Positions 7,371 through 64,000 of a stretch of DNA of 64,000 nt are shown here, piece after piece. How positions within the stretch are numbered: position 1 is the stretch's first letter; each line of letters starts with the position of its first letter. The notes beneath the pieces were generated by a model. The model was given only the letters and a program-made list of their open reading frames with translations, had not been told where the DNA came from and did no database searches. The stretch lies in contig JAWMAR010000203.1 in assembly GCA_036785375.1 (NCBI GenBank), positions 3,410,001 to 3,474,000 on the forward strand. Direction: 5' to 3'. A program made the translations under genes and the position numbers. This DNA is from Leucoraja ocellata (lineage: Eukaryota).

Positions 7371-7851
7371 GTTCTTTCGACCTGCTCCAGGGTTTCTAAC
7401 TGTGTTGGAAGGTTTAAAGAATTATCCAGCACTGTCTGAATAAATAATTGATTTTAGCAGCAATGGTTTGAATCGAGTTTTCTTGAATTAGACTGGCAAA
7501 AAGAACTCCTTTTAACATCAGGACCTGGTCAAATTCGGGGACAGTTTCTTCCCAGCTGTTATTAGACAACTGACCTATCCCACCAATAACTAGAGAGCAT
7601 TCCTGAACTACTATCTACCTCATTAGAGACCATCAGATTATCTTTGATTGGACTTTATCTTGCATAAACATTGTGCACATTGTTGCCTTTATCGTGTATC
7701 TGTACACTTTGGACAGTTTGATTGTTGCTTTCTGCTGACTGGTTAGCACCCAGCAAAAAGCTGTTCACTGTACCTCGGTACACGTGACAATAAACTAAAC
7801 TCAATTCAAGTGAAGGTGACAATAATAAACCCTTTTCTGTCTTTTGTTCAG

Positions 7852-8190
7852 ATGCATTCATCACTTGTGAACCAGCCACAGATGTAGAGATCGGCAAGGA
7901 TGTCACCTTCAAGTGTACGTTTAAGTGCGACAATCCATGTGTACCGAGGGTGAGGTGGGAGAAGGATCAAGATGCTGGAATCTTGTACGAGTACAAGGGA
8001 GATAAAAGCGATGTCAGCAAACAACATGCCAACTACTCGGGAAGAATTGAAGTCGACACATCCTCATTTAAAGAAGGAAAAGCATTTCTTACATTGAAGA
8101 ATGTCGAAATCTGGGATGAGGGAAAGTACATTGTCAGTATTAGCACTGACAATGGATATGGACCTGGATTTGTCCAGCTATCTGTTTGGG
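7852..8190 (+). CDS. Gene A exon: IgV domain of a B7/butyrophilin-family (B7-H4/VTCN1-like) protein
   Basis: Acceptor cttttctgtcttttgttcag, donor G|gtatgt, phase 1-1. Translation (D)AFITCEPATDVEIGKDVTFKCTFKCDNPCVPRVRWEKDQDAGILYEYKGDKSDVSKQHANYSGRIEVDTSSFKEGKAFLTLKNVEIWDEGKYIVSISTDNGYGPGFVQLSVW shows B7/BTN V hallmarks (Q..Y.GR, G.A.L.L.NV...D.G.Y). Confidence 0.9.
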
Positions 8191-8587
8191 GTATGTTTTC
8201 ATACTTGATAGGAGCAGAATTAGGCCATTCGGCCCATCGGTCATTCGGCCATCTCCTGCCTTCTCCCCCATACCCCCTTACTACCGTACTAATCGAGAAC
8301 CTGTCAATCTCCATTTTAAAAATACCCAATGACTTGGACTCCACAGCTGTCAGTGGCAGTGAATTCCACAGATTCACCACCCTCAGGCTGTAGAAATTCT
8401 TCCTCTTCTCCTTTCTAAAGGAACATTGTTTTATTCTGATGTTGTCCCAGGCTCACCCACTACTGGAAACCTCCTTGTCTTCTCTCTTATTCTGTTTACA
8501 GTGAGGGTCAAATGCACCTGGGTGTATTTATTTAATTGTTCAGTATTAGGGATTATTTTTAATTCTTAACGCAGCTTTTTTTACAGG

Positions 8588-11135
8588 AAGTCAAGTCAAG
8601 TTTATTTGTCACATACACATACGAGATGTGCAGTGAAATGAAAGTGGCAATGCTCGTGGACTTTTGTGCAAAAGACAAACAACAAAACAACCAACAAATT
8701 ATAAACACAATCATAACATACATATTCTTTTACATAATAAATATGGAAGGAAAAACGTTCAGTAGAGTTAGTCCCTGGTGAGATAGGCGTTTACAGTCCG
8801 AATTGCCTCTGGGAAGAAACTCCTTCTCAACCTCTCCGTTCTCACCGAATGGCAACGGAGGCGTTTGCCTGACCGTAGCTGCTGGAACAGTCCGTTGCAG
8901 GGGTGGAAAGGGTCTCCCATGATTTTTTTTGCTCTGGAGTTGCACCTCCTGTTGTATAGTTCCTGCAGGGGGGCGCATGAAGTTCCCATAGTGCGTTCAG
9001 CCGAACGCACTACTCTCTGCAGAGCCTTCTTGTCCTTGGCAGAGCAATTCCCAAACCAGATGGTAATGTTCCCGGACAAGATGCTTTCCACCGCCGCTGC
9101 GTAGAAGCACTGGAGGATCCTCGGAGACACTCTGAATTTCCTCAATTGCCTGAGGTGGTAAAGGCGCTGCCTTGCCTTACTCACGAGCACTGAGGCGTGT
9201 GATGCCCATGTCATATCCTCAGAGATGTGGACTCCCAGATATTTAAAACAGTTCACCCTATCCACAGGATCCCCATTTATACTCAATGGAGTGTACGTCC
9301 ATGGATGATGTGCCCTCCTAAAGTCCATGATCAGCTCCTTCGGTTTTTTTTTATGTTCAAGAGGAGGCTGTTATCCAGGCACCAGAGTGCTAGACCAGCC
9401 ACCTCCTCCCGGTAGGCCTTCTCGTCGTTGTCTGAGATCAGGCCCACCACCACAGTGTCATCAGCAAACTTAATTAATGAGTTGGAGCTGAACCTAGCCA
9501 CACAATCATGTGTGTACAGGGAGTACAATAGGGGGCTGAGGACGCAACCCTGAGGCGATCCTGTGCTCAGGGTGAGGGACTTTGATGTATTCCCTCCAAT
9601 CTTGATTACCTGAGGCCTGGCGGTGAGGAAGTCCAGGACCCAGGCACACAGGGGGGTGTTGAGCCCCAATTCCATTAGCTTCCCGGCCAGTCTGGTGGGG
9701 ACTATTGTGTTGAAGGCTGAACTGTAGTCTATAAACAGCATCCTCACGTAGCCCCCCTTCTGGCTGTCCAGATGGGAGAGAGCGGTGTGCAAGACCTGGG
9801 AGACCGCATCGTCCGTGGACCTGTTCAGACGGTATGCAAACTGCAACGGGTCCATGTTCCGAGGGAGGAAGGCGCAGATGTGATTCTTCACCAGCCTCTC
9901 AAAGCATTTCATGACTACTGAGGTAAGGGCCACCGGACGGTAGTCATCCAGACAGGCTGTGGAGGCATTTTTTGGTACCGGTACAATGATGGATTTTTTG
10001 AAGCAGGCAGGGACCACGGACTTGTCCAGGGAGAGGTTGAATAATGTAGTGAGCACCGGAGCTAGCTGCGTAGCACAGGACTTGAGTACTCGCCCCGAGG
10101 TGCCATCGGGGCCTGCAGCTTTTCTCGTGTTCACCCGTGTCAGAGCCCTCCTCACGTCGTGCTCGGACAGCGAGAATGTGTGCACATTTCTCCCTTCAGC
10201 TTCGGTAGCCAGCCCGCTGGCGGTATTGTCGATAGTCGGCAGACCTGGAGTGGTGTTGCCCCTCTCGAAACGAGCGTAGAAGGAGTTCAGGTCGTCAGCT
10301 AGGGAGGTGCCGGCACATGCGGATGAGGAAGGGGTGCTCCGGTAGTTGGTTACAATCCGTAGCCCCTGCCACAGGCTTCTGGTGTCCTGCTGCTCCATCT
10401 GTAACTCCATCTTGTCCCTGTACCTTCTCTTTGCGTCCTTCACCGCCCTTCGCAGTTGGTAGGACTCTGCCTTGTAGACGTCCATGTTTCCTGATGCCAG
10501 GCCCAAGTTGTAGGCAGCGGTGCGAGCATTCAGGGCCACACGAACAGATCTGTCTACCCAGGGTTTTTGGTTCGGGAAGGTGCTTACCCTTACCGCGGGG
10601 ATAATGTTGTCGGTTACTGTTGCGATGAAGTCCGTGACTGCTTCCGCGAAGTCACTGACGTCACTGGAACTTGCTTCGAACATATTCCAGTCGACATCAC
10701 TCAGTGCATCTTGCAGTATGGCCTCTGACTGGTCGGACCACCGCTTTACGTCCCTCGTCTCTACCGCTTCCCGAACTATCCTCTGTTTATACTCCGGCAA
10801 CAGGAAAATGGCAGCGTGGTCAGATTTTCCTAGGGGAGGGAGTGAAACGGCCTTGTAGCCTTTCCTGAACAGTGTGTAGCAGTGGTCCAAAGTTCTCTCC
10901 CCCCTGGTGGCACACGTGATGTGTTGGTAGAAGTTCGGCATGACCTTCTTGAGATTTGATTTATTACCATAGCCGCATCCGGGTACTTGTTTTGATGTCG
11001 ATATAGCACATCGTGTAGGGCCGATAGTGCCACGTCGCTGTCCGCCTGCGGTGGAATGTAGACAGCTGTGACGATCACTGAGCCGAACTCCCGGGGAAGG
11101 TAGAATGGGCGGCATGAGATTGCCAGATGCCGAAA
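8588..11135 (-). mobile_element. Rex1/Babar LINE, 5'-truncated, frameshifted EN-RT
   Basis: ORF 9331-11148 (YRPVALTSVVMKCFERL, FIDYSSAFNT, GSPQGCVLSP, KFADDT) and C-terminal ORF 8768-9328. EN remnant IVTAVYIPP. (CTTGA)n tail at ~8588-8600. Lies in the gene A V-C intron. Confidence 0.9.
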
Positions 11136-11274
11136 ATTCTGGTGTCATCTCCCTTCATCAAAATTCTCTTGTGAAGTTCCACCAGTTCAAATAAACTTCA
11201 TGCCTCAGTCCACGGCATCAAAGTTACAAAGAACAGGGATGTCTTTGGGGTGTCTAATTATACAACTATTAATG

Positions 11275-11756: not shown

Positions 11757-12020
11757 CTGCTGCTGATCCTATCAAAATTATCATGAATTCCGAAATGGAC
11801 ATGCTCTCTTGCCAGTCGTCAGGGTGGTATCCTGCCCCAACGGTGGAGTGGAGGGACAAATCGGGGAACGATTTAAACAAACACAGTGAAATAATCATGA
11901 AAGAACCCAATGGCCATTTCAACGTGACCCACAATCTGAAAGTATTTGACAAACAGAATCAGTACATCTGCTCAATGTGGCATAAGTGGATGAAAAAACA
12001 GACTCGAGTGGTTTTCTCGG
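11757..12020 (+). CDS. Gene A exon: B7/BTN-type IgC domain
   Basis: Acceptor tttcttttcttggcag, donor G|gtaagt, phase 1-1. (A)AADPIKIIMNSEMDMLSCQSSGWYPAPTVEWRDKSGNDLNKHSEIIMKEPNGHFNVTHNLKVFDKQNQYICSMWHKWMKKQTRVVFS contains the C.SSGWYP.P.V.W and Y.C...H motifs. Confidence 0.92.
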
Positions 12021-12281
12021 GTAAGTTTATTTTCTGAGATTATTAATCAAGTAAATTTAAATAAACTTATTAGAGATATTTTCATTCATAATCTGAGATC
12101 CATCAGTCGTTGTTTAAGAAAGAACTGCAGATGCTGGAAAAATCGAAGGTAGACAAAGATAGGCAGACATGGTTTGTCTATCCATCAGTCATTGACAAGT
12201 TTGTTGGTGAATTATTCCAGGATTTAGTCTCACCGCCCCACAAGATTTAGATTTAGGTTTATTATTGTCACGTGTAGTGTT

Positions 12282-16879: not shown

Positions 16880-19800
16880 TATTTCCGGAAGATAATCCGG
16901 GGCGAGGGACTCAAATAGAGAAAGCTAGTAGACAGAATGGGAGGCAGGAAGCAGAAAAGGGAAGCACTCGGACACAAGAGGAGAAAGAAACAAAAGGAAA
17001 TAAACAGAGAATAAGAGTTTCTTAAATGTGTATATTTTAATGCAAGGAGCATTATAAGAAAGGTGGATGAGCTTAGAGTCTGGATAGACACCTGGAAGTA
17101 TGATGTTTAAGAGGGAACTGCAGATGCTGGAGAATCGAAGGTTACACAAAAAAGCTGGAGAAACTCAGCGGGTGCAGCAGCATCTATGGAGCGAAGGAAA
17201 TAGGCAACGTTTCGGGCCGAAACCCTTCTTCAGAAGTATGATGTTGTGGCGATCAGTGAAACATGGTTGCAGGAGGGCTGTGATTGGAAACTAAATATTC
17301 CAGGATTTCGTTGCTTCAGGTGTGATAGAATTGGAGGGGCAAGAGGTGGAGGTGTTGCATTGCTAGTCAGGGAAGATATTACAGCAGTGCTTTGGCAGGA
17401 TAGATTGGAGGGCTCATCTAGGGAGGCTATTTGGGTAGAACTGAGAAGTGGGAAAGGTGTAGCAACACTTATAGGGGTGTATTATAGACCGCCAAATGGG
17501 GAACGAGAATTGGAAGAGCAAATATGTAAGGAGATAGCAGATATTAGTAGTAAGCACAAGGTAGTGATTGTGGGAGATTTCAACTTTCCACACATAGACT
17601 GGGAAACACATTCTGTAAATGGGCTGGATGGTTTGGAGTTTGTAAAATGTGTGCAGGATAGTTTTTTGCAGCAATACATAGAGGTACCTACTAGAGGAGG
17701 GGGCAGTGCTAGACCTCTTGTTAGGAAATGAGACGGGACAGGTGGCGGAGGTATGCGTTGGGGAGCACTTCGGGTCCAGTGATCACAATACCATTAGTTT
17801 CAATATAATTATGGAGAAGGTCAGAACTGGACCTAGGGTTGAGATTTTTGATTGGAGAAAAGCTAACTTTGATGAGATGCGAGATGATTTAAAAGGAGTG
17901 AACTGGGACATTTTGTTTTATGGGAAAGATGGGGAAGAGAAATGGAGGACATTTAAAGGGGAAATTTTAAGAGTACAGAATCTTTATGTTCCTGTTCGGT
18001 TGAGAGGAAACAGTAAAAATTGGAAAGAGCCCTGGTTTTCAAGGGAAATTGGACTTGTTCGGAAAAAGAGGGAGATCTACAATAATTATAGGCAGCATGA
18101 AGTAAATGAGGTGCTTGAGGAGTATAAGGAATGTAAAAAGAATCTTAAGAAAGAAATTAGAAAAGCTAAAAGAAGATATGAGGTTGCTTTGGCAAGTAAG
18201 GTGAAAGTAAATCCAAAGGGTTTCTACAGCTATATTAATAGCAAAAGGATAACAAGGGATACAATTGGTCCTTTGGAGAGACAGAGTGGACAGCTATCTG
18301 CAGAGCCAAAAGAGATGGGGGAGATACTGAACAACTTTTTTTTCTTCGGTATTGACCCAGGAGAAGGATATTGAATTATGTGAGGTAAGGGAAACTAGTA
18401 GAGTAGCTATGGATACTATGAGGTTCAAAGTAAAAGAAGTACTGACACTTTTGAAAAATATAAAAGTGGATAAGTCTCCAGGTCCTGACAGGATATTCCC
18501 TAGGACATTGAGGGAAGTTAGTGTAGAAATAGCCGGGGCTATGACAGAAATATTTCAAATGTCATTAGAAACGGGAATAGTCCCCGAGGATTGGCGTACT
18601 GCGCATGTTGTTCCATTGTTTAAAAAGTGTTCTAAGAGTAAACCTAGCAATTATAGACCTGTTAGTTTGACTTCAGTGGTGGGCAAATTAATGGAAAAGA
18701 TACTTAGAGATAATATATATAAGCATCTAGATAAACAGGGTCTGATTAGGAACAGTCAACATGGATTTGTGCCTGGAAGGTCATGTTTGACTAATCTTCT
18801 TGAATTTTTTGAAGAGGTTACTAGGGAAATTGACGAGGGTAAAGCAGTGGATGTTGTCTATATGGACTTTAGTAAGGCCTTTGACAAGGTTCCTCATGGA
18901 AGGTTGGTTAAGAAGGTTCAACTGTTGGGTATAAATGCAGGAGTAGCAAGATGGATTCAACAGTGGCTGAATGGGAGAAGCCAGAGGGTAATGGTGGATG
19001 GCTGTTTATCGGGTTGCAGGCAGGTTACTAGTGGGATGCCTCAGGGATCTGTGTTGGGTCCTTTGTTGTTTGTCATGTACATCAATGATCTGGATGAAGG
19101 TGTAAATTGGATTAGTAAGTATGCAGATGATACCAAAATGAAGAGGATTTCCAAAGTCTACAGAGTGATTTGGGCCATTTGGAAAAATGGGCTGAAACAT
19201 GGCAGATGGAGTTTAATGCTGATAAATGTGAGGTGCTACACCTTGGCAGGACAAATCAAAATAGGACGTACATGGTAAATGGTAGGGAATTGAAGAATAC
19301 AGTTGAACAGAGGGATCTGGGAATAACCGTGCATAGTTCCTTGAAGGTGGAATCTCATATAGATAGGGTGGTAAAGAAAGCTTTTGGTATGCTAGCCTTT
19401 ATAAATCAGAGCATTGAGTATAGAAGCTTGGATGTAATGTTAAAATTGTACAAGGCATTGGTAAGACCAAATCTGGAGTATGGTGTACAATTTTGGTCGC
19501 CCAATTATAGGAAGGATGTCAACAAAATAGAGAGAGTACAGAGGAGATTTACTAGAATGTTGCCTGGGTTTCAACAACTAAGTTGCAGAGATAGGTTGAA
19601 TAAGTTAGGTCTTTATTCTCTGGAGTGCAGAAGGTTAAAGGGGGACTTGATAGAGGTCTTTAAAATGATGGGAGGGATAGACAGAGTTGATGTGGACAAG
19701 CTTTTCCCTTTGAGAATAGGGAAGATTCAAACAAGAGGACATGACTTCAGAATTAAGGGACAGAAGTTTAGGGGTAACATGAGGGGGAACTTCTTTACTC

Positions 19801-34837: not shown

Positions 34838-35037
34838 NNNNNNNNNNNNNNNNNNNNNNNNNNNNNNNNNNNNNNNNNNNNNNNNNNNNNNNNNNNNNNN
34901 NNNNNNNNNNNNNNNNNNNNNNNNNNNNNNNNNNNNNNNNNNNNNNNNNNNNNNNNNNNNNNNNNNNNNNNNNNNNNNNNNNNNNNNNNNNNNNNNNNNN
35001 NNNNNNNNNNNNNNNNNNNNNNNNNNNNNNNNNNNNN
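34838..35037. other. Assembly gap (200 N)
   Basis: Run of N. Confidence 1.
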
Positions 35038-40861: not shown

Positions 40862-40910
40862 ATGTCATCGTTTGCAAAATTCATCTCCACACTCTGCCTC
40901 TTTCTCCCAG
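40862..40910 (+). CDS. Gene B exon 1: signal peptide
   Basis: aaaATG; MSSFAKFISTLCLFLP(G); perfect donor CAG|gtaagt in phase 1. The leader is completed by GSAVG in exon 2. Confidence 0.85.
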
Positions 40911-41697: not shown

Positions 41698-42027
41698 GGT
41701 CCGCTGTCGGTGTGAGGGTGAACCAGTCTCCTGCTGCTCTGACACTTCTCCGAGGACAGACAGCTACGTTCACCTGCTCCCTGCTACCTGGAGAGGGGGA
41801 GATAGTTTTAATGAGGGAATTCTGGTTTCGGACGAAAGACAACCCGGAGCTCTGGGACAACAAGACCGAGAGTTTTCTGAAGACAGGCGACCGACTGTTC
41901 GTGTCCCTGGGCTCGCTGGTCATTCGGGAGGTGACTGTGCACGATGCAGACACTTACCATTGTGTGGTACTGATACATGATATCTGGAAAAAGTTTACAG
42001 GAAACGGAACCACATTACATATCCAAG
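41698..42027 (+). CDS. Gene B exon 2: germline-joined VJ-type IgV domain (NKp30/antigen-receptor-like)
   Basis: Phase 1-1. (G)SAVGVRVNQSPAALTLLRGQTATFTCSLLPGEGEIVLMREFWFRTKDNPELWDNKTESFLKTGDRLFVSLGSLVIREVTVHDADTYHCVVLIHDIWKKFTGNGTTLHIQ has QSP, B-strand Cys, WFR, DADTYHC and J-like GNGTTLHI, then AAG|gtaatt. Confidence 0.93.
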
Positions 42028-44799: not shown

Positions 44800-45099
44800 C
44801 GAAGCCTGACATCTCCCTGACCCTGGATCCCGGGATAGAAGGCGCAGAGACGCGGAGCCTGACTTGTGTGGCCGCCGGATTCTTCCCGAGGGAGCTGAAC
44901 ATGTCCTGGGCTGTCGTGGGCCAGTTGTCCTATGAAACAGAAGCGGGGCCGCTGAGGGAGAATGAGGATGGAAGCTTCAACGTGAGCTCCCGGCTGCGGC
45001 TCACCGGCCCTCGGCTAGAGGCGGGCATGGTCGTCACCTGCCTGGTTCAGCACCTCACGGGGACGGGCTCAGTGAGCGAACGTTTCCCTCCCATCCCAA
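44800..45099 (+). CDS. Gene B exon 3: C1-set Ig domain
   Basis: Acceptor ttttcctactttacgcag, donor CAA|gtaagt, phase 1-1. (A)KPDISLTLDPGIEGAETRSLTCVAAGFFPRELNMSWAVVGQLSYETEAGPLRENEDGSFNVSSRLRLTGPRLEAGMVVTCLVQHLTGTGSVSERFPPIP shows C1 hallmarks C.A.GFFP, N.DGSF...S.L and C.V.H. Confidence 0.93.
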
Positions 45100-54230: not shown

Positions 54231-54332
54231 GATCCTCCAAGTATTATTTCATTCGACTGAGTCTGATCCTAATAGTACCAATATGGGTCTTGATTGTGTA
54301 TCATTATCACAATAAATTGAAGAAAGGAAAAG
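54231..54332 (+). CDS. Gene B transmembrane exon with charged Arg
   Basis: Acceptor tttcaattgtgattttcaag, donor AAG|gtattg, phase 1-1. (R)SSKYYFIRLSLILIVPIWVLIVYHYHNKLKKGK is a hydrophobic span followed by a basic stop-transfer cluster. Confidence 0.8.
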
Positions 54333-54954
54333 GTATTGTATACATTGTACATTTTATTTTGTAATTTAACTAAAAACTGAGTATATAAAAGTGAATATTG
54401 TCTTTAGTTCCAGAGAGATTAAAATAATTTAAACAAAATGAGGGTGACAGCTTGTAGAGCTGCTGCCTCACAGCGCTAGAGATCCAGGTTAGAAACATAG
54501 AAACATAGACAATAGGTGCAGGAGTGGGCCATTCAGCCCTTCGAGCCTGCACCACCATTCAATGTGATCATGACTGATCATCTAAAATCCGTACACCGTT
54601 CTTGCTTTTTCACCATATCCCTTGATTCCTTTAGCCCTAAGAAATAAATCTAACTCGCTCTTGAATCCTGACTACGGGTGCTGACTTTGTGTAGAGTTTG
54701 CATGTTCTCCCTGTGACCACTTGGATTTCCTCAGAGTGCTTTGTTTTTCTCCCACATCCCAAAGATGTGTGGGTTTGTAGGTTAATTGACCCTGTGTAAA
54801 TTGCCCCTAGTGTGCAGGGAGTGGATGTGAAAATGGGATAATGTAGAACTAGTCCGAACAGGTGATCGATGGTCGGCGTAGACGCGGTGGGCTGAATGGC
54901 CTGTTTCTGTCCTGTATCTCTGAAATACACTAAATATTCATGATATTTTTATAG

Positions 54955-55022
54955 AATCATCTGTCCATGATGCAACTGTTGATATTCAAAGCATGAGAAA
55001 CCGAAATAACTCAGTAAATGAG
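54955..55022 (+). CDS. Gene B cytoplasmic exon
   Basis: Acceptor atatttttatag, strong donor GAG|gtgagt, phase 1-0; (E)SSVHDATVDIQSMRNRNNSVNE. Confidence 0.75.
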
Positions 55023-55099
55023 GTGAGTAATTTAGTTTGATATTTACCCTTATGTTGCATGCACGATGTTCTAATGTACACTGCGGTATTGTCAGCTTA

Positions 55100-56015
55100 T
55101 ATGAACAAATTCATCAGCACTATTGGATGTAATGGACTTTGTGGTTTTGCAGATAGTGAAGATGATTGTGAAAGATTGTAGCCGGATTGGCCAGGTGGGC
55201 AGAGGAATGGTTGATGGCATTTAATACAGAGAAGTGTGAGGTGTTGTATTTTGGGATGTGAAACAAGGGCATTACCTACACAGTAAATGGTAGGCCTCTG
55301 GGTAATATTGTAGAGTAGAGGCATCTACCTGGGACTCGACCATGGTTCGTTGAAGGTCGAGTCGCAGGTAGATAAGGTGGTCGAAAAGGCTTTTGGCACT
55401 TTGGCCTTCATCAGTCAAAGTATTGAGTATCGAAGCTAAGAGGTCATGTTGTAGTTGTATAAGACGTTGATGAGACGGCATTTAGAATATTGTGTTCAGT
55501 TTTGGGCACTATGTTAGAGGAAAGATATTGTCAAGCTTGAAAGGTTTCAGAAAATATTTATGAGGATGTTGCCAGGACTAGAGGGTGTGAGCTACAGGTA
55601 GAGATTGAGTAGGCTGGGTCCCTATTCCATGGAGCACAGGAGGATGATGGGAGATCTTATAGAGGTATAAATAATCATGAGAGGAATAGATCGGGCAGAT
55701 GCACAGAGGCTCTTGCCCAAAGTAGGGGAATCGAGGACCAGAGGACATAGGTTCAAGGTGAAGGGGAAAAGATTTAATAGGAATCCGAGGGGTATCTTTT
55801 ACACACAAAGGATGGTGGATGTATGGAACAAGCTGCCAGAGCAGATGCTATCCCATCGTTTAAGAAACAGTTCGACAGGTAAATGGATAGGGCGGGTTTG
55901 GAGGGTTATGGACCAAGCGCAGGCAAGTGGGACTAGTGCAGCTGGGACATTGTTGGCCGGTGTGGGCGAGTTGGGCCAAAGGGCCTGTTTCCACACTGTA
56001 TCTCTCTCTATGTCT
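55100..56015 (+). mobile_element. Old CR1/HER1-type 3' fragment
   Basis: Degenerate RT C-terminus; ORF 55677-56021 TRGHRFKVKG...WNKLP. Confidence 0.8.
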
Positions 56016-56286
56016 CTATAACACAAGACATTCTGCGGCACGGTGGTGCAGTGGGAGTGTTGCTGTCTCATAGCTGAGTCGCACGTTACGAATTAGCACA
56101 AGAGGTACCCCGAGTTAAAACTCGTGGTAATAACGTACGATTAACGTACCAAATTCGTAGACGTAACTTAGAGACTCGTGGCGCTAACGGCAGGTACTCG
56201 AGAAACTTGTCAACTCTTGCAAAAAGTCAAACATGTTTAAAATTTTCCACGAGTCAATTTTACCCTTGTGGTTAGGAATTGAAACA

Positions 56287-57175
56287 ACGTACGACATACG
56301 CTCATCCAATTTAAAACATTACATAGATTATATTATTCAAAAACTAAATTAAATAAAATCTTCCCTAATGTTTCACCAATCTGTGATAAATGCCTGTGTC
56401 AAGAAGCTACCATAGCGCACTCTTTTGTTTTTTGTACAAAAATCCAAAAATTCTGGTATGAAATATTTGATATTTTTTCAAAATTAGTCAAAATAAAACT
56501 GGTACCAAAACCAGAATGGATTATCTTTGGAATATCGGAAGGTAACCCTGAACTAAACGTGCTTCAGAAGAATGTATTTAATTACGGGCTAATAATGGGA
56601 AAAAAGCTTATACTTAAATTCTGGAAAAATGCGCCCATACCAACAATAAAAATGTGGATATCAAATATGTTTGAAACATTACATCTGGAAGAGATGAAAT
56701 TCCTCTTAGCAGGTAAAGCAGACCAATTCCAAAAGACGTGGTCTATGTTTCTGGCATCTCTATTACAAGTATGAGGTGCAATAGTAATTTAAATAAATAA
56801 ATAAATGGTATCAGGACCTGGTAACGGGAGGTAAAACAACAAAAACAGACTTGGTTGGTAGTCCCCTTTCTGCGGAGTTTAATGTTATAATAGAGCGATT
56901 GTTCCTATTTTCTTTTTCTTTCTTTTCTAGGGTCTATTTTCTCACTTTACTTCCTTCTCTAACTTCTTTTCTAAGGGCTTTCTTTTCCCAACACTCTTGC
57001 ACTTCACGACTCTTGCGCACTTTCTTTATTTGCCTTACTTCTATCTTTTTCTTAAAGCTCAAAAAAAATGAAGCGGTACAAAAAATGTATTAAGATATAT
57101 GTGTTGTGTAGTATTGTAATTTACCGTACTTCTAATAAAAATAAAATAAAATAAAAAAATTAATTAAAAAAAAAA
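56287..57175 (+). mobile_element. L1-clade 3' fragment with poly(A)
   Basis: CDKC knuckle, KKLILKFWK similarity to 48271-50524 and A-rich tail. 11-bp TSD GAATTGAAACA (56276-86, 57176-86). Confidence 0.85.
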
Positions 57176-57317
57176 GAATTGAAACATTTTAACTTGTAAG
57201 AACGTAGTGGCCCGTGCGTTTACCTTAGTGTATCGTGAGTCTACCGTGGGAACTCTTTAACTCAGCGGGCAGGCAGCAGCAGATTGTCGCTCCCTTCAGT
57301 TTCCCAGCGACAATCAC

Positions 57318-58501
57318 CTGCCATAACGCGAGAGAGATCATGCACTGTTGTAGGTCTCCTTTGCACGTCGGTGTTTCTGTCTTTCTCCACTCATTGTTGA
57401 CCCTATCTGTCACCACCCCCACCTACACCCCTCTGCTTCCCGGCCATGTGTGTGACCCCTTCCCTCCCCTCTCCAGCTCCCCGCCCATTACACCAGCGTG
57501 GGGGCTTTGCACTGTCTTCACGGCGGCGATGCCAGCGGGTTAGTGCCAATCGCCCCGGGGCAGTCGCTCCCTTCAGTTTCCCAGGGGGTCGAGATAGGAC
57601 TGGAGTTGGGAGGGAAAGGTGGGGGGGTGGGGGGGTTAGGTGAGCAGGAGAGTGGAGTTGTTTGCAGTTGCAGAGGAAGGGGGCAAGGGCGGTACAGTTC
57701 CCAGTCTCTGCTCCTGCCCAGGGGGGTGGCCGGAGACGTCAGGACCAACGAGACACCGACCCCCAGGCCCACCAGGCCCACTGCAAGCACGGAGAACCCA
57801 GAGACCCACAGCCAACAGCAACTCCAGCCCAGTCCCGCTCCAACTCCAGAGGAACCCGCTCCCCGTAGGGTCAGAAGCTGATGGTGTGCAAGGTACGTCT
57901 TGTTCTTGGGATGGCGGATGAGGGGGCGCAGCTCGGGCTATGGGCGAACTGCCACTTGTCGCCGTAGCAGCCCATCGGGAGCGAGGCTGGGCTGGAGTTG
58001 CTGTTGGCTATGGGTCTCTGGGTTCTCCGTGCTTGCAGTGGGCCTGGTGGGCCTGGGGGTCGGTGTCCCGTTGGCCCTGACGTCTCAGGCCACCACCCTG
58101 GGTAGAAGCTGAGACGGAACTGTACCGCCCTTGCCCCCTCCCTCTGCAACTGCAAACAACCCCACTCTCCTGGCCACCTAACCCCCCCCCCCCCCCCTCA
58201 CCTTTTCCTCCCAACTCCAGTCCCGTCCCGACCCCCTGGGAAACTGAAGGGAGCGACTGCCCCGGGGCGACTGGCACTGACCTGCTGGCATCGCCGACGT
58301 GAAGACAGTGCAAAGCCCCCTCGCTGGTGCAATGGGCGGGGAGCTGGAGAGGGGAGGGAAGGGTCACACACATGGCCGGGAAGCAAAGGGGTGTAGGTGG
58401 GGGTGGTGACAGATAGGGCCAACAATGAGTGGAGAAAGACAGAAACACCGACGTGCAAAGGAGACCTACAACAGTGCATGATCTCTCTCGTGTTATGGCA
58501 G
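57318..58501. repeat. Long inverted repeat (foldback) element
   Basis: Arms ~57318-57832 and ~57985-58501 are reverse complements; sequence shared with 4584-5310. Confidence 0.85.
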
Positions 58502-61500
58502 CTGTTCCTGAAGCTAAAGCCTTGGGATCGTTGCCCTTCGTGTTGGCGTGGAGGGGGAGGGGGAGAGGGTATTGTGCTGTTTGATCGCCCCCTGCTATCC
58601 CAGGGACAGGGAGACACAGCGGCTTTTGAGACTGGTGGGCAATCACGTCTAAAGTGTGTGCCCATACAGTCAGTACACCTCTCCTACACTTGTCTCCACC
58701 TCTCCTACACCTGCCTCCACCACTTCCACTGGAAGCTCATTCCACACCGCTACCACTCTCTGAGTAAAGAAGTTCCCCCTCATGTTACCCCTAAACCTCT
58801 GTCCCTTAATTCGTGGGTTTTCTCCGGGTGCTCCCGTTTCCTCTCATTCTTCAAATTGGCTTCTGTAAAAACTATCACTAGTGTGTAGGATAGTGCTAGT
58901 GCAGGGGTTAATCGCTGTTCGGCACGGACTCGGTGGGCCGAAGGGCCTGTTTCCGCACTGTTTCTCTAAAGTCTAGTGCATCTGCAGTTCCTTGTGTCAG
59001 CAAAACCGAATTGTCGCTGTCCTTTTTCAATCGAGAGAATTTTTCAATGCATTTAACTTGTTTGCCGTTTCCTTCCATCAGCTGGAATTATACTGCCAAC
59101 AAAGTGAGATCCATATTCCAAAACACACTTCCTCTTCAAGGAGGCCTTGTGGTCAACTGCATACCAGTCATTGGACATTGCTCGTGCAATGAGTTTCGTT
59201 GTTAATAACCAGTTGAAGAAGTGATGTTGCTACTAATATGCGTTGGATTCCATTCTCTTCAACTAAATCTACTATGCGTAAAATGACCTCAAGTGCCTGG
59301 TTTACTCATTATAGTGAATGCAGGGTCTTTTACCCAGGATAGGGAAATCTGGCTGCATTATTCAAGCACTTTGGGGTTTTTTCCAAGCCACCATCTGCAG
59401 TTCCTTGCGTATTTATTAAAGAAGTTCGGTTCTGTTACTTTTTTGAGTAAGAAAGAACTTCAGATGCTGGTAAAAATCAAAGGTTTTGATCAGTCTGAAG
59501 AAGGATCTCGACCCCATTCCTTCTCTCCAGAGATGCTGCCTCACCGGCTGAGTTACTCCTGCATTTTGTGTCTATCTTCTGTTACTTTTTTATTCTTCTA
59601 CTCTGTGAAGACTTTAAGCTCGGAGTATAATTCCAGGGTCTCATTGTCCTCAATGTTATCTCTCACTTCTTCAAGTGTATATCCTAGCGTTGATGAAATG
59701 ACATATCTTGACCAAGTCTGATTAGACTTTAGAGATACAGTGTGGAAACAGGACATTTGGCCCACCGAGTCCGCACCGACCAGCAATCACCTCTTTCACT
59801 AGCGCGATCCTACACACTAGGGACATTTTAGAAATTTACCAAAGCCAATTAACCTACAAACCTGTATGTCTTTGGAGTGTGGGAGGAAACTGGAGAATCT
59901 GGAGATCCCACGCGATCAAGGGGAGAACATATAAACTTTGTACAGACAGCACCTGTAGTCGGGATTAAAACCAGGTCTCTGCCGCTGTGAGGCAGCAACT
60001 CTACCGCTGCGCCAATGTGCCCCCTAATCATGCAGAGTTTTGCACATGACATTAGTTGCACTCCTCAGGCTGACTTTCACCTCCGTATCATTTTAGACAC
60101 ACAAAACCTGATAGCGCGCGACAAACAAAACAGCTGTTAATCTTGTCCTTTTAGAGTTGGTCAGATTATAGCAGGCACAGATATTCCCTACACACTGGGG
60201 GCAATTTACAGAAGACCACAAACCCGCACGTCTTTGTGACATGGGAGGAAATTAGAGCATGGATGAATTAATTAACTCTGTCCGATATCTTTCCCTGGAC
60301 ACCCCGTACTTAATGTGCAGCAGCTGAAAGTGATGGGTTTTCTCCTTAAACAGCTCAGTGAGTGGTTGCATGAGTTTTTGCAGTTGGAGGTCACTTCAGT
60401 AAAATATGAATTGCCAGCGCAAAGTTCTCTGATTCTAGCAATATTCCACCGTCATATCACACTGTCCCCTGCCAACAACAATCCCATCAATACCAACCTG
60501 CCTGAGGTCATTTGTTGCCGGCCCTGATTTGTCCCAGTCTTTGCTTACTTTCAGCCCCCCCCCCCCCCCAGTCTGAAGAAGAGTCCCAATCTGAAACGTC
60601 ACCTGTCCACCACATAGACGTTGTCTGTCTCGTTGAGTTTGTGTCTATCTGATTCTAGCAAGCTTTGTTGTTGGGAAAACTGAATGCAATGGACTGGCCA
60701 TTGTTAAGATCAGAAAATGACCCAAAGACTCAACGGTCAGGCAGTATCTGTGCTGAATATGGATAGATAAGTTTCCTCGACGGTGAAACTGATGAGAAGG
60801 TTGGTTGACCCTGTTAAGGGACAAGAGTGTTATCATTTGTTGTCATATACACTGACAACAGAACAATAACATTCTTATTTGCAGCAGCATAACAAGCCTG
60901 TAAACACAAGGCATACAAAGAATATATAGCAAACAAAAATGCAATCCATTGCAAAACCCCACAAAGTGTGTAGTGCAACTAAAGACAGTTTAGTTGATGT
61001 TGTGCAGAGTTCATGAGCCTGATGGTTGGTGGAAATAAGCTGTTCCTGAACCTGGACATTGCTGTTCACACATTCCTGTACCTTCTTCCTGATAGCAGGA
61101 ATGAAATGAAAGCATGGCCAGAGTGCTGTGGGTCTCTGATGTTATTGGTTGACTTTTTGAGGCAGCGCCTCCTGCAGATCCCTTCGATGTTGGGACGGTC
61201 TCTTCCTGCGATGGACTAGGCAGTGCCCACCTCTCTTTGTAACCTGCTTCATTCCTGGGTGATGTTGACAATGATATCAGTGAAACAGATATTGCCCACA
61301 AGTGTCACATGCCCACCGATCACTGACTAGTCCATGGACACACACATCCACACTTTAGCTTTTGCCCATTTGGTGTTTACTAATCAAATTCGTTACTGAT
61401 TTCACATGACTTTTCAATATAAATCAGGAACAGAGCCTCATTATAATTCATAAATTATAAATTATAAATCAGGAACAGAATACCTCATTAGATTCAGCTA

Positions 61501-61509
61501 AAAATAAAA

Positions 61510-62310
61510 TGACCATAAGATCATCAGACATAGTAGCAGAATTAGGTCATTCAGTCCATCGAGTCTGCTCCAACATTCACTCATGGCTGATCTAATTTTC
61601 CCTCTCAACCAATACTCCTGCCTTCTCACCGTAATCTTTGACACCCGTACTAATCAAGAATCTATCATTCTCCGCTTTAAAATGATCCAATGTCTTGGCC
61701 TCTACCACTGACTGCGCTAATGAATTCCACAGATTCACCACCATCTGGCTAAATAAATCCTCTCATCTCCGTTCTATTGTTATCCAAAATGTTCTAAAGT
61801 TCTAAAATTCCTCCGCTCCTCCAATTCTAAAATGAAGAAAATATCTTTCTAACCATAAGTTGGAATGTCTACAGAGACGATTTACGATGATGTTGACAGG
61901 ACTTGAGGGAGAGGTTGAGCAGGCTTGGACTCCCTGGAGCACAGGAGGATAAGGGGCGATCTTATGGAGGTGTATAAAATCATAATGGGAATAAGTGGGT
62001 GAATGCACGGAGTTTTTATAGCCAAAGGGAATTGAGAAATAGAAGGCATATGTTTAATGTGAGAAGGAAAAACCTGAGGGGCAACTTTATCATTCAGGGT
62101 ATATGTGGGTATATGGAACGAGCCGCCGGAGGACGTGGTTGGGGCAGGGACTACAACACCATTTAAAAGATATTTGGACAGGTACATGGACACAAAAGGT
62201 TTAGAGGGACTAGTGCCAACCGCGGGTAAATGGGACTATCTTAGATGGGGCATCTTGGTCGGCGTAGACGAGTTGGGCCGATGGGTCTGTTTCCGTGCTC
62301 TATAACTATG
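61510..62310. mobile_element. CR1 3' fragments in opposite orientations
   Basis: CR1 3' UTR and WNE.PE.VV.A motifs. Confidence 0.7.
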
Positions 62311-62370
62311 ATATCAACTCTGTAACACTAATATTTGCAAGTGGTTCTTATTGTTATTTTTGTGTTGCAG

Positions 62371-62406
62371 GATAATGTTTCAATAAACTATGAAAATCTG
62401 CATTAG
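62371..62406 (+). CDS. Gene B terminal coding exon with ITIM
   Basis: Strong acceptor ttattgttatttttgtgttgcag. Phase 0 gives DNVSINYENLH*; INYENL fits (I/V/L/S)xYxx(L/V). Confidence 0.75.
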   Translation, partial: DNVSINYENLH

Positions 62407-64000
62407 GCGCCTGTTTATTGCAAGAAGGGACAGCAAAGACAGGAATTGAGATGGACCGAGCAACCCCAAGAAACAGAATATGCCGTCTTAAAGGTCAAAG
62501 ATTAAAAATCGCTCTTTTTTGCATCTTTCTTCTTTTTCTTCATTCTTTTCGTTTTTCTCTTTTCCTCGATTTATGTGTCAATTTATTCTTTTCGATTTAT
62601 GTATCAATTTATAAGATGTTAAAAATGAAGCTGTACAGAAATTGTATAACTCTCATGCCAATTGCTTTATTCTTGTACAATTGCTTCTAATAAGATAAAC
62701 ATATTAAAAAAAAGATAAAAATAATTTATGAAGAACCGGTAACTTACTCCACAGTAATACATTGTACCTCTTCAACGAGACCACAAACTGATACTTATCA
62801 TACAACCACACACTCATCTCTCAAACAACATATGCAGAATATAAAAAAACAGAATCTAGAGGATGTGGCATGGCTTCCGAAACTTAATTCTCTATTCAAT
62901 TACTTTCCTTGAGCTCAAAACCAATTGATCTTTGTGACTCGCCATTGATCGCCTTCTGAGAGTTCCAAATGTACTTAGAATAAAGGGGAGGCATTTAAGA
63001 CTGAGGTGAGAATAAACGTTTTCACCCAGAGAGTTGTGAATTTGTGGAATTCCCTGCCACAGAGGGCAGTGGAGGCCAAGTCACTGGATGGATTTAAGAG
63101 AGAGTTAGATAGAGCTCTAGGGGCTAGTGGAAACAAGGGATATGGGGAGAAGGCAGGTACGGGTTATTGATTGAGGATGATCAGCCATGATCACAATAGT
63201 TGGCGGTGGTGGCTCGAAGGGCCGAATAGCACCTATTTTGAAAAACTTTGTTTTGCATGCTATCCAATCAAATCAGATACTACTATACATAAACACAATT
63301 AACCCAAACTCAAGTACAATAGGTGGAGCAAAGTGGAAGATACAAAGTGCAGAATTTAATTCTCAGCACTGTAGCACACTAGTTCCACAGACAAAGTCCA
63401 ATGTCCGCAATGGGGTAGAGGTGATTCGGAAGCCTGAAAACAGAGGGGAAGAAGCTGTTGCTGAATCTGTTGGTGCGCACTTTCAAGCTTCTGTATCTTC
63501 TGCCTGATGAGAGCAGGAGAAAAATGAATGATCAGGTTGGGACAAGTCTTTGATTATGTTGGCTGCCAATCAGATGAGCCCCACACCTCTACTTTCAGAA
63601 GAAGGGTTCCGACCCAAAACGTCACCTATTTTTTCTCTAGAGATGCTGCCTGACCTGCTGAGTTACTCCAGCACTTTGTCTCTATCTAGAGCTGGGTCAC
63701 ACTGAAGATCATCAGTGCCCTAAAACATGACCCGTCCATGTCCTCCAGAGATGCCACTTGACTCTTCCTCAGTCTGAAGGAGTGTTCTGTCCTGGCAGAT
63801 GTTTTCACGAGGTTTAGATTTAGCTCCAAGGGCTAACGGAATCAAAGGATATTGATAGAGAGCAGGAACGCGGTACTGATTTTGGACGATCAGCCATGAT
63901 AATATTGAATGGCGGTGCTGACTCGAAGGACCAAATGACCTATTCCTGCACCTATTTTCCATGTCTCTATGACCTGAAACATTCCCTGTCCTCATACTCC

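What the first reader, a model, noticed from the sequence alone, without database searches (positions are those of the whole stretch)
54231..62406. Dual signalling design: transmembrane Arg plus C-terminal ITIM in one chain
Seen: the TM segment YYFIRLSLILIVPIWVLIVY has Arg near its outer end, and the last exon encodes INYENL next to the stop. Known: an Arg at this position recruits CD3zeta/FcRgamma in NKp30, NKp46 and activating LILRs. IxYxxL recruits SHP-1/2, and YEN is a Grb2-SH2-type YxN motif. Having both features is uncommon (KIR2DL4, NKp44, chicken CHIR-AB). Inference: a bifunctional activating/inhibitory receptor.
Basis: partly seen in the sequence, partly recalled or inferred. Interest (0 to 1): 0.7.

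Follow-up and report, generated by a model that had tools for sequence, protein, structure and literature searches.

The report
Immune brake receptor rewired into activator
This cartilaginous-fish gene encodes an antibody-like cell-surface receptor whose inhibitory tail is cut off by a stop codon and whose membrane segment carries an arginine, so it is likely the activating twin of neighbouring inhibitory receptors rather than one receptor that does both jobs.

Summary
Both motifs are real, but the reading changes. The gene is leader-VJ-C1-TM-two tail exons (294 aa), a non-rearranging SIRP-like receptor, not NKp30. The genome holds six copies in two classes. Four (this one included; one is frameshifted) have TM Arg, INYENL and a stop. 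Two have TM Leu, Asn in place of that Tyr, and an open tail with an ITIM and an ITSM-like motif. The stop sits on the ITIM tyrosine codon, and the second motif lies dead behind it. In 12 of 12 other shark and ray species the orthologue has Leu and no Tyr there, so Arg, the Tyr and the stop are all derived. Ectodomains are mixed across classes while signalling halves are not: a paired-receptor pattern like KIR2DS. INYENL is a newly gained motif, not a retained ITIM; it also fits a Grb2 site. Other rays and a shark have an older Arg partner with a different TM exon, not found here. No transcript or binding data. Verdict: likely activating member of a paired family, reinvented in this lineage; true dual function about 20%.

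The parts
40862..40910 (+). Leader exon (ATG, 16 codons plus one base, phase 1)
   Evidence: Hydrophobic ATG exon with GT donor, present in 6 of 6 copies
41698..42027 (+). Single-exon VJ-type Ig V domain with a J-like GxG end
   Evidence: Pfam V-set E 4e-07; model pLDDT 86, fold matches VNAR, TCR V-alpha and NKp30 about equally; 65% identical to a sawfish protein
44800..45099 (+). Ig C1-set exon
   Evidence: tblastn with orthologues E 1e-35; Pfam C1-set E 5.7e-13
54231..54332 (+). Transmembrane exon; Arg codon at 54254-54256 (Leu in the inhibitory class and in orthologues)
54955..55022 (+). First cytoplasmic exon, no tyrosine
   Evidence: Phase 1 to 0, 68 bases in 6 of 6 copies; aligns to orthologues
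62371..62406 (+). Coding part of last exon: gained Tyr codon at 62389-62391 (INYENL) and TAG at 62404-62406 on the ancestral ITIM tyrosine codon
62407..62505 (+). Non-coding relic of the inhibitory tail, still in frame, with TEYAVL at 62473-62490
   Evidence: broken by new stops or a deletion in two other organisms
62504..62717 (+). About 214-base insertion with a short flanking duplication and A-rich end, in all four Arg-class copies and in neither Leu-class copy; likely a retroelement 3' end
   Evidence: Alignment and an 81% match on contig C1; element type inferred
62727..62831 (+). Older relic of the distal ancestral tail, cut off in both classes by a shared frameshift
   Evidence: tblastn with the stingray protein, 51% over 35 residues; alignment

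Best explanation
This is the short-tailed, arginine-bearing member of a pair of near-identical VJ-C1 immune receptors, and it likely activates cells through FcR-gamma or CD3-zeta while its leucine-bearing twins likely inhibit them. Shown: the two classes, the three class-defining single-base differences (Leu/Arg, Asn/Tyr, Tyr/stop), their derived state, and mixing of ectodomains across classes. Inferred: the Arg would pair with the TM aspartate of an FcR-gamma or zeta dimer and signal through its ITAMs; the stop removes the two-tyrosine phosphatase platform; the lone new YENL tyrosine most likely acts as a minor Grb2-type docking site, or does little. Exchange of the ectodomain exons would keep both classes aimed at the same ligand, possibly so that the activating copy catches a pathogen that mimics the ligand of the inhibitory one (inference from other paired receptors).
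For: Six complete gene copies: 4 Arg/Tyr/stop and 2 Leu/Asn/open, no mixed copy. Orthologues of the same TM type from 12 species: Leu in 12 of 12, Tyr at the YENL site in 0 of 12, ITIM tyrosine in 12 of 12. Informative sites: 25 of 34 in the signalling half split Leu from Arg class, 0 of 22 in the ectodomain part; class-diagnostic sites are nearly absent from 40.5 to 50.5 kb and dense from 53.5 kb on. The five copies tested form one clade (100/100) in an ectodomain tree of 21 proteins. Contigs of other organisms: stop-type last exon in 3 of 4 runs laid (1 had no cover), open-type in 2 of 4, with Lys or Asp at the YENL site; Arg in 4 of 4, Leu type in 1 of 4. Adaptor-type TM exons in the genome: 2 over the Pfam cut-off, one best matching FcR-gamma. 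Same recipe in hominoid KIR: a charged TM residue plus a stop within the membrane-proximal ITIM (PMC2213150, passages). Homogenised ligand-binding domains in paired receptors (PMC3210942, abstract). pY-x-N binds Grb2 SH2, as in CD22 YENV (PMC5302901, passages).
Against: No transcript, protein or binding data. INYENL fits the ITIM consensus and is kept in 4 of 4 Arg copies and in 3 other organisms. The TM lacks the NxxR motif typical of FcR-gamma-coupled LRC receptors (PMC6557307, passages). One of four Arg copies has a frameshift in C1. Constraint before versus behind the stop is not significant (2 of 36 against 13 of 96 variable sites, p 0.16). V exons show pN about equal to pS (0.041, 0.040), so positive selection is not shown. 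In CD22 the Grb2 site dampens signalling, so a Grb2 site need not be activating. Copies on the two small contigs may be alleles rather than loci. TM and tail are phased only in this genome.
Confidence: 0.62

Rival explanations
1. True dual receptor: the Arg recruits an ITAM adaptor and the newly gained INYENL works as an ITIM that replaces the lost ones.
For: Exact IxYxxL consensus; only 2 of 396 possible single-base changes in the Leu-class tail make an ITIM consensus (2 of 14 Tyr-creating changes), and this is one of them; Tyr tied to the stop class in all copies and organisms seen. Arg-plus-ITIM receptors exist (CHIR, PMC1458963, passages).
Against: The two conserved inhibitory motifs were removed in the same lineage; keeping them would have been the simple route to a dual receptor. 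One motif only, with an acidic +1 and Asn +2 that suit Grb2. Ile and Leu of the consensus pre-existed in the Leu class. Conservation over about 7% DNA divergence is expected without selection.
Confidence: 0.2
2. Truncated, non-signalling or decaying duplicates (decoys); Arg and Tyr are passengers on an amplified haplotype.
For: 1 of 4 Arg copies is frameshifted; no significant constraint in the short tail; a retroelement-like insertion sits behind the stop.
Against: 3 of 4 Arg copies are intact over six exons; the class is shared with other organisms whose post-stop relic decays while the pre-stop part shows no change; an Arg at this TM place recurs independently in the older partner of other species.
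Confidence: 0.12
3. The stop is bypassed (readthrough, or splicing to the AG of the TAG itself or a later in-frame AG), giving a longer isoform with TEYAVL, so the gene is dual through isoforms.
For: The relic is in frame and free of stops up to TEYAVL in 4 of 4 Arg copies; the TAG forms an in-frame AG.
Against: Weak pyrimidine tract (8 of 17, against 12 for the main acceptor); in two other organisms the relic has gained stops, a 2-base deletion or lost the ITIM Val (one of these contigs is assigned to the stop class only by the insertion).
Confidence: 0.06

Closest known systems
Elasmobranch RefSeq models named 'signal-regulatory protein beta-1-like' or 'PTPNS1-like' (for example XP_051870356 sawfish, XP_038658211 catshark)
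   Same: Orthologous family: VJ, C1, TM and tail all align, 47-65% V identity.
   Different: Those with this TM type all have Leu and a long tyrosine tail; their Arg partner uses a different TM exon and a tail without tyrosine motifs. Names are automatic.
Short-tailed activating KIR (KIR2DS) derived from inhibitory KIR
   Same: Gain of a basic TM residue and a stop in the membrane-proximal ITIM, then swapping of ectodomains (PMC2213150, passages).
   Different: Unrelated Ig domains; Arg near the outer end rather than a Lys for DAP12; an extra Tyr motif was gained.
Mammalian SIRP-alpha / SIRP-beta1 pair
   Same: Best solved-structure sequence hits of the sawfish orthologue are SIRP-alpha and SIRP-gamma (E 4e-22, 8e-19, mostly through C1); V-C1 architecture; paired design (recalled).
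   Different: One C1 here; Arg rather than Lys (SIRP-beta1 Lys recalled); orthology and synteny not shown.
Non-rearranging VJ-C1 genes PRARP, amphibian VJC1, shark UrIg/UrIg2
   Same: Single-exon VJ followed by C1 (PMC10751288 passages; PMC12227049 section 7).
   Different: UrIg2 has nine or more C1 domains; the PRARP and VJC1 papers could not be read, so orthology is open.
NKp30 / shark NCR3
   Same: VJ-type V exon, Arg near the outer TM end, weak sequence and fold match.
   Different: NKp30 has one Ig domain (recalled); this gene has a C1 exon; no MHC class I hit on the contig.
KIR2DL4 and chicken bifunctional CHIR
   Same: TM Arg and an ITIM-consensus motif in one chain.
   Different: Those lineages retained the ancestral ITIM (PMC1458963, passages); here the ancestral motifs are lost and the motif is new.

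Membership tests
Paired activating/inhibitory receptors | Near-identical ectodomains in two classes | tested here: met
   Ectodomain DNA distance 3.4% between classes, 3.2% and 4.1% within
Paired activating/inhibitory receptors | One class with uncharged TM and ITIM tail, the other with basic TM residue and short tail | tested here: met
   6 of 6 copies fall cleanly in two classes
Paired activating/inhibitory receptors | Linked genes | tested here: met
   Two Arg and two Leu copies within 0.7 Mb of contig C203
Paired activating/inhibitory receptors | Opposite signalling shown in cells | not testable with these tools
   Needs cell assays
Bifunctional receptors (KIR2DL4, CHIR-AB type) | Basic TM residue | tested here: met
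   Arg at TM position 5
Bifunctional receptors (KIR2DL4, CHIR-AB type) | Retained ancestral ITIM | tested here: not met
   Ancestral ITIM Tyr codon is the stop; INYENL Tyr absent from 12 of 12 orthologues
Bifunctional receptors (KIR2DL4, CHIR-AB type) | Phosphatase recruitment to the tail | not testable with these tools
   Needs pull-down
NKp30 / NCR3 | Single VJ-type Ig domain only (feature recalled) | tested here: not met
   C1 exon at 44800-45099 in all six copies, frameshifted in one
NKp30 / NCR3 | MHC linkage | tested here: inconclusive
   0 of 11 MHC class I matches lie on C203, but the assembly is in 5847 contigs
SIRP family | V with J-like end followed by C1 domains (feature recalled) | tested here: met
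   One C1 here, two in some ray orthologues
SIRP family | Synteny with NSFL1C (neighbour recalled) | tested here: inconclusive
   0 of 5 SEP-domain matches on C203
SIRP family | CD47 binding | not testable with these tools
   No data
Non-rearranging VJ-C1 genes (PRARP, VJC1) | V and J in one exon spliced to a C1 exon | tested here: met
Non-rearranging VJ-C1 genes (PRARP, VJC1) | Orthology to the described genes | not tested
   Papers not held; no such sequences among the fetched proteins were identified
LRC-type FcR-gamma-coupled receptors | NxxR motif in the TM | tested here: not met
   Residue three before the Arg is Tyr; motif from PMC6557307

The most novel reading that the evidence does not exclude
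Sharks and rays carry an old paired VJ-C1 receptor system; this lineage lost the old activating partner and rebuilt one from the inhibitory gene by three single-base changes, one of which created a new working phosphotyrosine site (Grb2-type or ITIM) just as the old ITIMs were cut off, and the receptor is copied as a cassette with a B7-family gene that may be its ligand.
Probability: 0.25. Interest if true: 0.7.

Novelty: new variant of a known kind. Interest (0 to 1): 0.5.

Why it matters
It extends the rule that activating receptors are repeatedly built from inhibitory ones, known from mammalian KIR and Ly49 and chicken CHIR, to cartilaginous fish and to a non-rearranging VJ-C1 gene of the type thought to resemble the antigen-receptor precursor. 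The switch reduces to three codons with natural Leu/Arg, Asn/Tyr and Tyr/stop variants side by side in one genome, so each step can be tested directly. The apparent replacement of an older activating partner would be a clean case of turnover of activating receptors.

Tried and rejected
NKp30 orthologue: first guess from the VJ exon and Arg, dropped when the C1 exon was found. Assembly error at the stop: rejected, TAG is in 4 of 6 copies and in contigs of 3 other organisms. Extra or alternative TM exon in the C1-TM intron: two weak hydrophobic candidates only, no match to the older Arg TM. Older Arg-type TM exon: no hit in 438 kb of held DNA with a profile that found each left-out member at E 7e-07 or better; a genome-wide single-protein search gave 0 candidates, which is weak. 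Word-based protein searches with the V exon found nothing. Atlas search gave only generic V-set clusters. No RNA holder listed, so expression and splicing stay open. Complex prediction of the TM with the FcR-gamma-like TM was not available (nothing was folded). Positive selection on V: not shown. Earlier findings of the scan: none returned. Paper searches for a description of this family found none, but five papers most likely to bear on it were not held: Kinlein 2021 (PMC8273117), Flajnik 2012 (PMC3709836), Ohta and Flajnik 2015 (PMC4594805), Flajnik 2023 (PMC10530332), Ohta 2019 (PMC6761025); Fu 2019 was seen only as a reference entry. No supplements were read.
Full report
Observation. The Arg codon is at 54254-54256. 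INYENL is followed by one His and TAG at 62404-62406. The frame runs on behind the stop for 32 codons and contains TEYAVL. An ITIM consensus turns up in 7% of shuffles of the tail, so the motif needed comparative evidence.

Gene. A V-set exon with a J-like end lies at 41698-42027, a leader exon at 40862-40910 and a C1-set exon at 44800-45099. With the TM exon and two tail exons the phases fit and give 294 residues. Splicing is inferred; the run search listed no RNA holder. The V model (pLDDT 86) matches VNAR, TCR V-alpha and NKp30 about equally, so the fold does not name the family.

Copies. Searches of the own genome with V, TM and last exon each gave six copies, four on contig C203 and one each on C1820 and C2713, which may be alleles. 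Four copies have TM Arg, INYENL and TAG. Two have TM Leu, Asn at that Tyr site, a Tyr codon at the TAG site completing LHYAPV, and TEYAVL or TEYAIL before a later stop. No copy is mixed. Each of the three differences is one base. The C1820 copy has a frameshift in C1. Among informative sites, 25 of 34 in the signalling half separate the classes and 0 of 22 in the ectodomain part do; along the gene the class signal is nearly absent up to about 50.5 kb and dense from 53.5 kb. This is the pattern described for paired receptors (PMC3210942, abstract). V differences sit mostly in a few loops, but pN equals pS.

Direction of change. The HMMER search returned four close relatives among 39 hits; cluster look-ups and a search with the sawfish protein added more. 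All are automatically named VJ-C1 proteins of sharks and rays. I counted one full-tailed protein of the same TM type per species, 12 in all, leaving out nine isoforms or models that were redundant or lacked TM or tail and five with another TM type. Leu stands at the Arg site in 12 of 12; the YENL site holds Asn, Ser or Asp, never Tyr; the ITIM tyrosine is present in 12 of 12. Arg, the new Tyr and the stop are thus derived. Five own copies form one clade (100/100) in a 21-row ectodomain tree; the frameshifted copy and three proteins my parser missed were left out. A shared frameshift had already shortened the tail in both classes, and a 214-base insertion marks the Arg class.

Other organisms. 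Contigs of four coded runs were laid on each exon. Last exon: three runs had cover; all three hold a Tyr-plus-TAG contig, two also hold an open contig with Lys or Asp at the YENL site. Behind the stop the relic has gained stops, a deletion or lost the ITIM Val in two organisms. TM exon: Arg in 4 of 4, a Leu contig in 1 of 4. The stop is therefore no assembly error and is older than this species. TM and tail cannot be phased in these contigs. Pooled variable sites, 2 of 36 before and 13 of 96 behind the stop, are not significantly different (p 0.16).

An older partner. Sawfish, a devil ray, a stingray and the horn shark have short-tailed members with a different TM exon; 4 of 5 such proteins carry Arg near the outer end and 1 His. 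The sawfish pair has almost identical ectodomains. That TM exon was not found in 438 kb of held DNA covering all six genes from V to tail, and a genome-wide single-protein search was blank but weak. Loss and replacement is the likely history but loss is not proven.

Mechanism. The best reading is an activating receptor. A basic TM residue pairs with the aspartate of ITAM adaptors, Arg typically with FcR-gamma (PMC6557307, passages), though this TM lacks the NxxR motif named there. The genome has two adaptor-type TM exons, one closest to FcR-gamma. Hominoid activating KIR arose by the same two steps, a charge and a stop in the proximal ITIM (PMC2213150, passages). The gained Tyr is the unusual part. 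Only 2 of 14 Tyr-creating single-base changes in the Leu-class tail give an ITIM consensus and this is one, which keeps the dual reading alive. But the site is single, the two conserved motifs were discarded, and pY-x-N is the Grb2 signature, as for CD22 YENV, where it dampens calcium signalling (PMC5302901, passages). Bifunctional CHIR lineages kept their ancestral ITIMs (PMC1458963, passages), unlike this case.

Family. It works like a paired receptor and meets the sequence features of that kind. It is not NKp30 (C1 exon present). The sawfish orthologue hits SIRP-alpha and SIRP-gamma best among solved structures, but synteny checks were inconclusive. It shares the VJ-C1 design of PRARP and UrIg (PMC10751288, passages; PMC12227049, abstract, passages and section 7). 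Features of NKp30 and SIRP given without a call are recalled. Eight searches of the held library found no description of this family, but five key papers were not held, so novelty in print is uncertain. PMC12272517, PMC10450919 and PMC11599192 were seen as passages and added nothing decisive.

Verdict. Observation confirmed, interpretation partly supported. New variant of a known kind, interest 0.5.

Noticed in passing
window 7851-8192 (+) and 11765-12022 (+): A B7/butyrophilin-family gene (V exon best matching B7-H4, then PD-L1 and BTNL8; IgC exon matching butyrophilins) lies upstream of the receptor. The same V plus C pair sits upstream of three other receptor copies in the same orientation and once more at C203 3.27 Mb, so it is copied as a cassette with the receptor. 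A candidate ligand; untested.
   Followed up: partly
proteins P0041, P0051, P0052, P0055, P0060: Other rays and the horn shark have a short-tailed partner with a different Arg-bearing TM exon; one stingray copy has His instead of Arg.
   Followed up: partly
G000 C1820 near 156.4 kb (L029): One Arg-class copy has a frameshift in its C1 exon: pseudogene or assembly error.
   Followed up: no
window 62320-62530, run X2: In one other organism the stop-type last exon lacks the insertion and continues into Leu-class-like 3' sequence, suggesting a recombinant or an earlier stage.
   Followed up: no
proteins P0047, P0048: Annotated isoforms in two sharks skip the TM exon but keep the tail, which would give a non-membrane form.
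   Followed up: no
window 9334-11154 (-), 17204-19275 (+), 55100-56000, 61860-62300: Retrotransposon reverse-transcriptase and endonuclease fragments and many short repeats fill the introns and intergenic DNA; a 200-base N gap lies at 34838-35037.
   Followed up: no
G000 C76 near 7.88 and 8.09 Mb (L081): Two more distant V-like exons match the sawfish V domain at 39-42%; possibly a related family.
   Followed up: no
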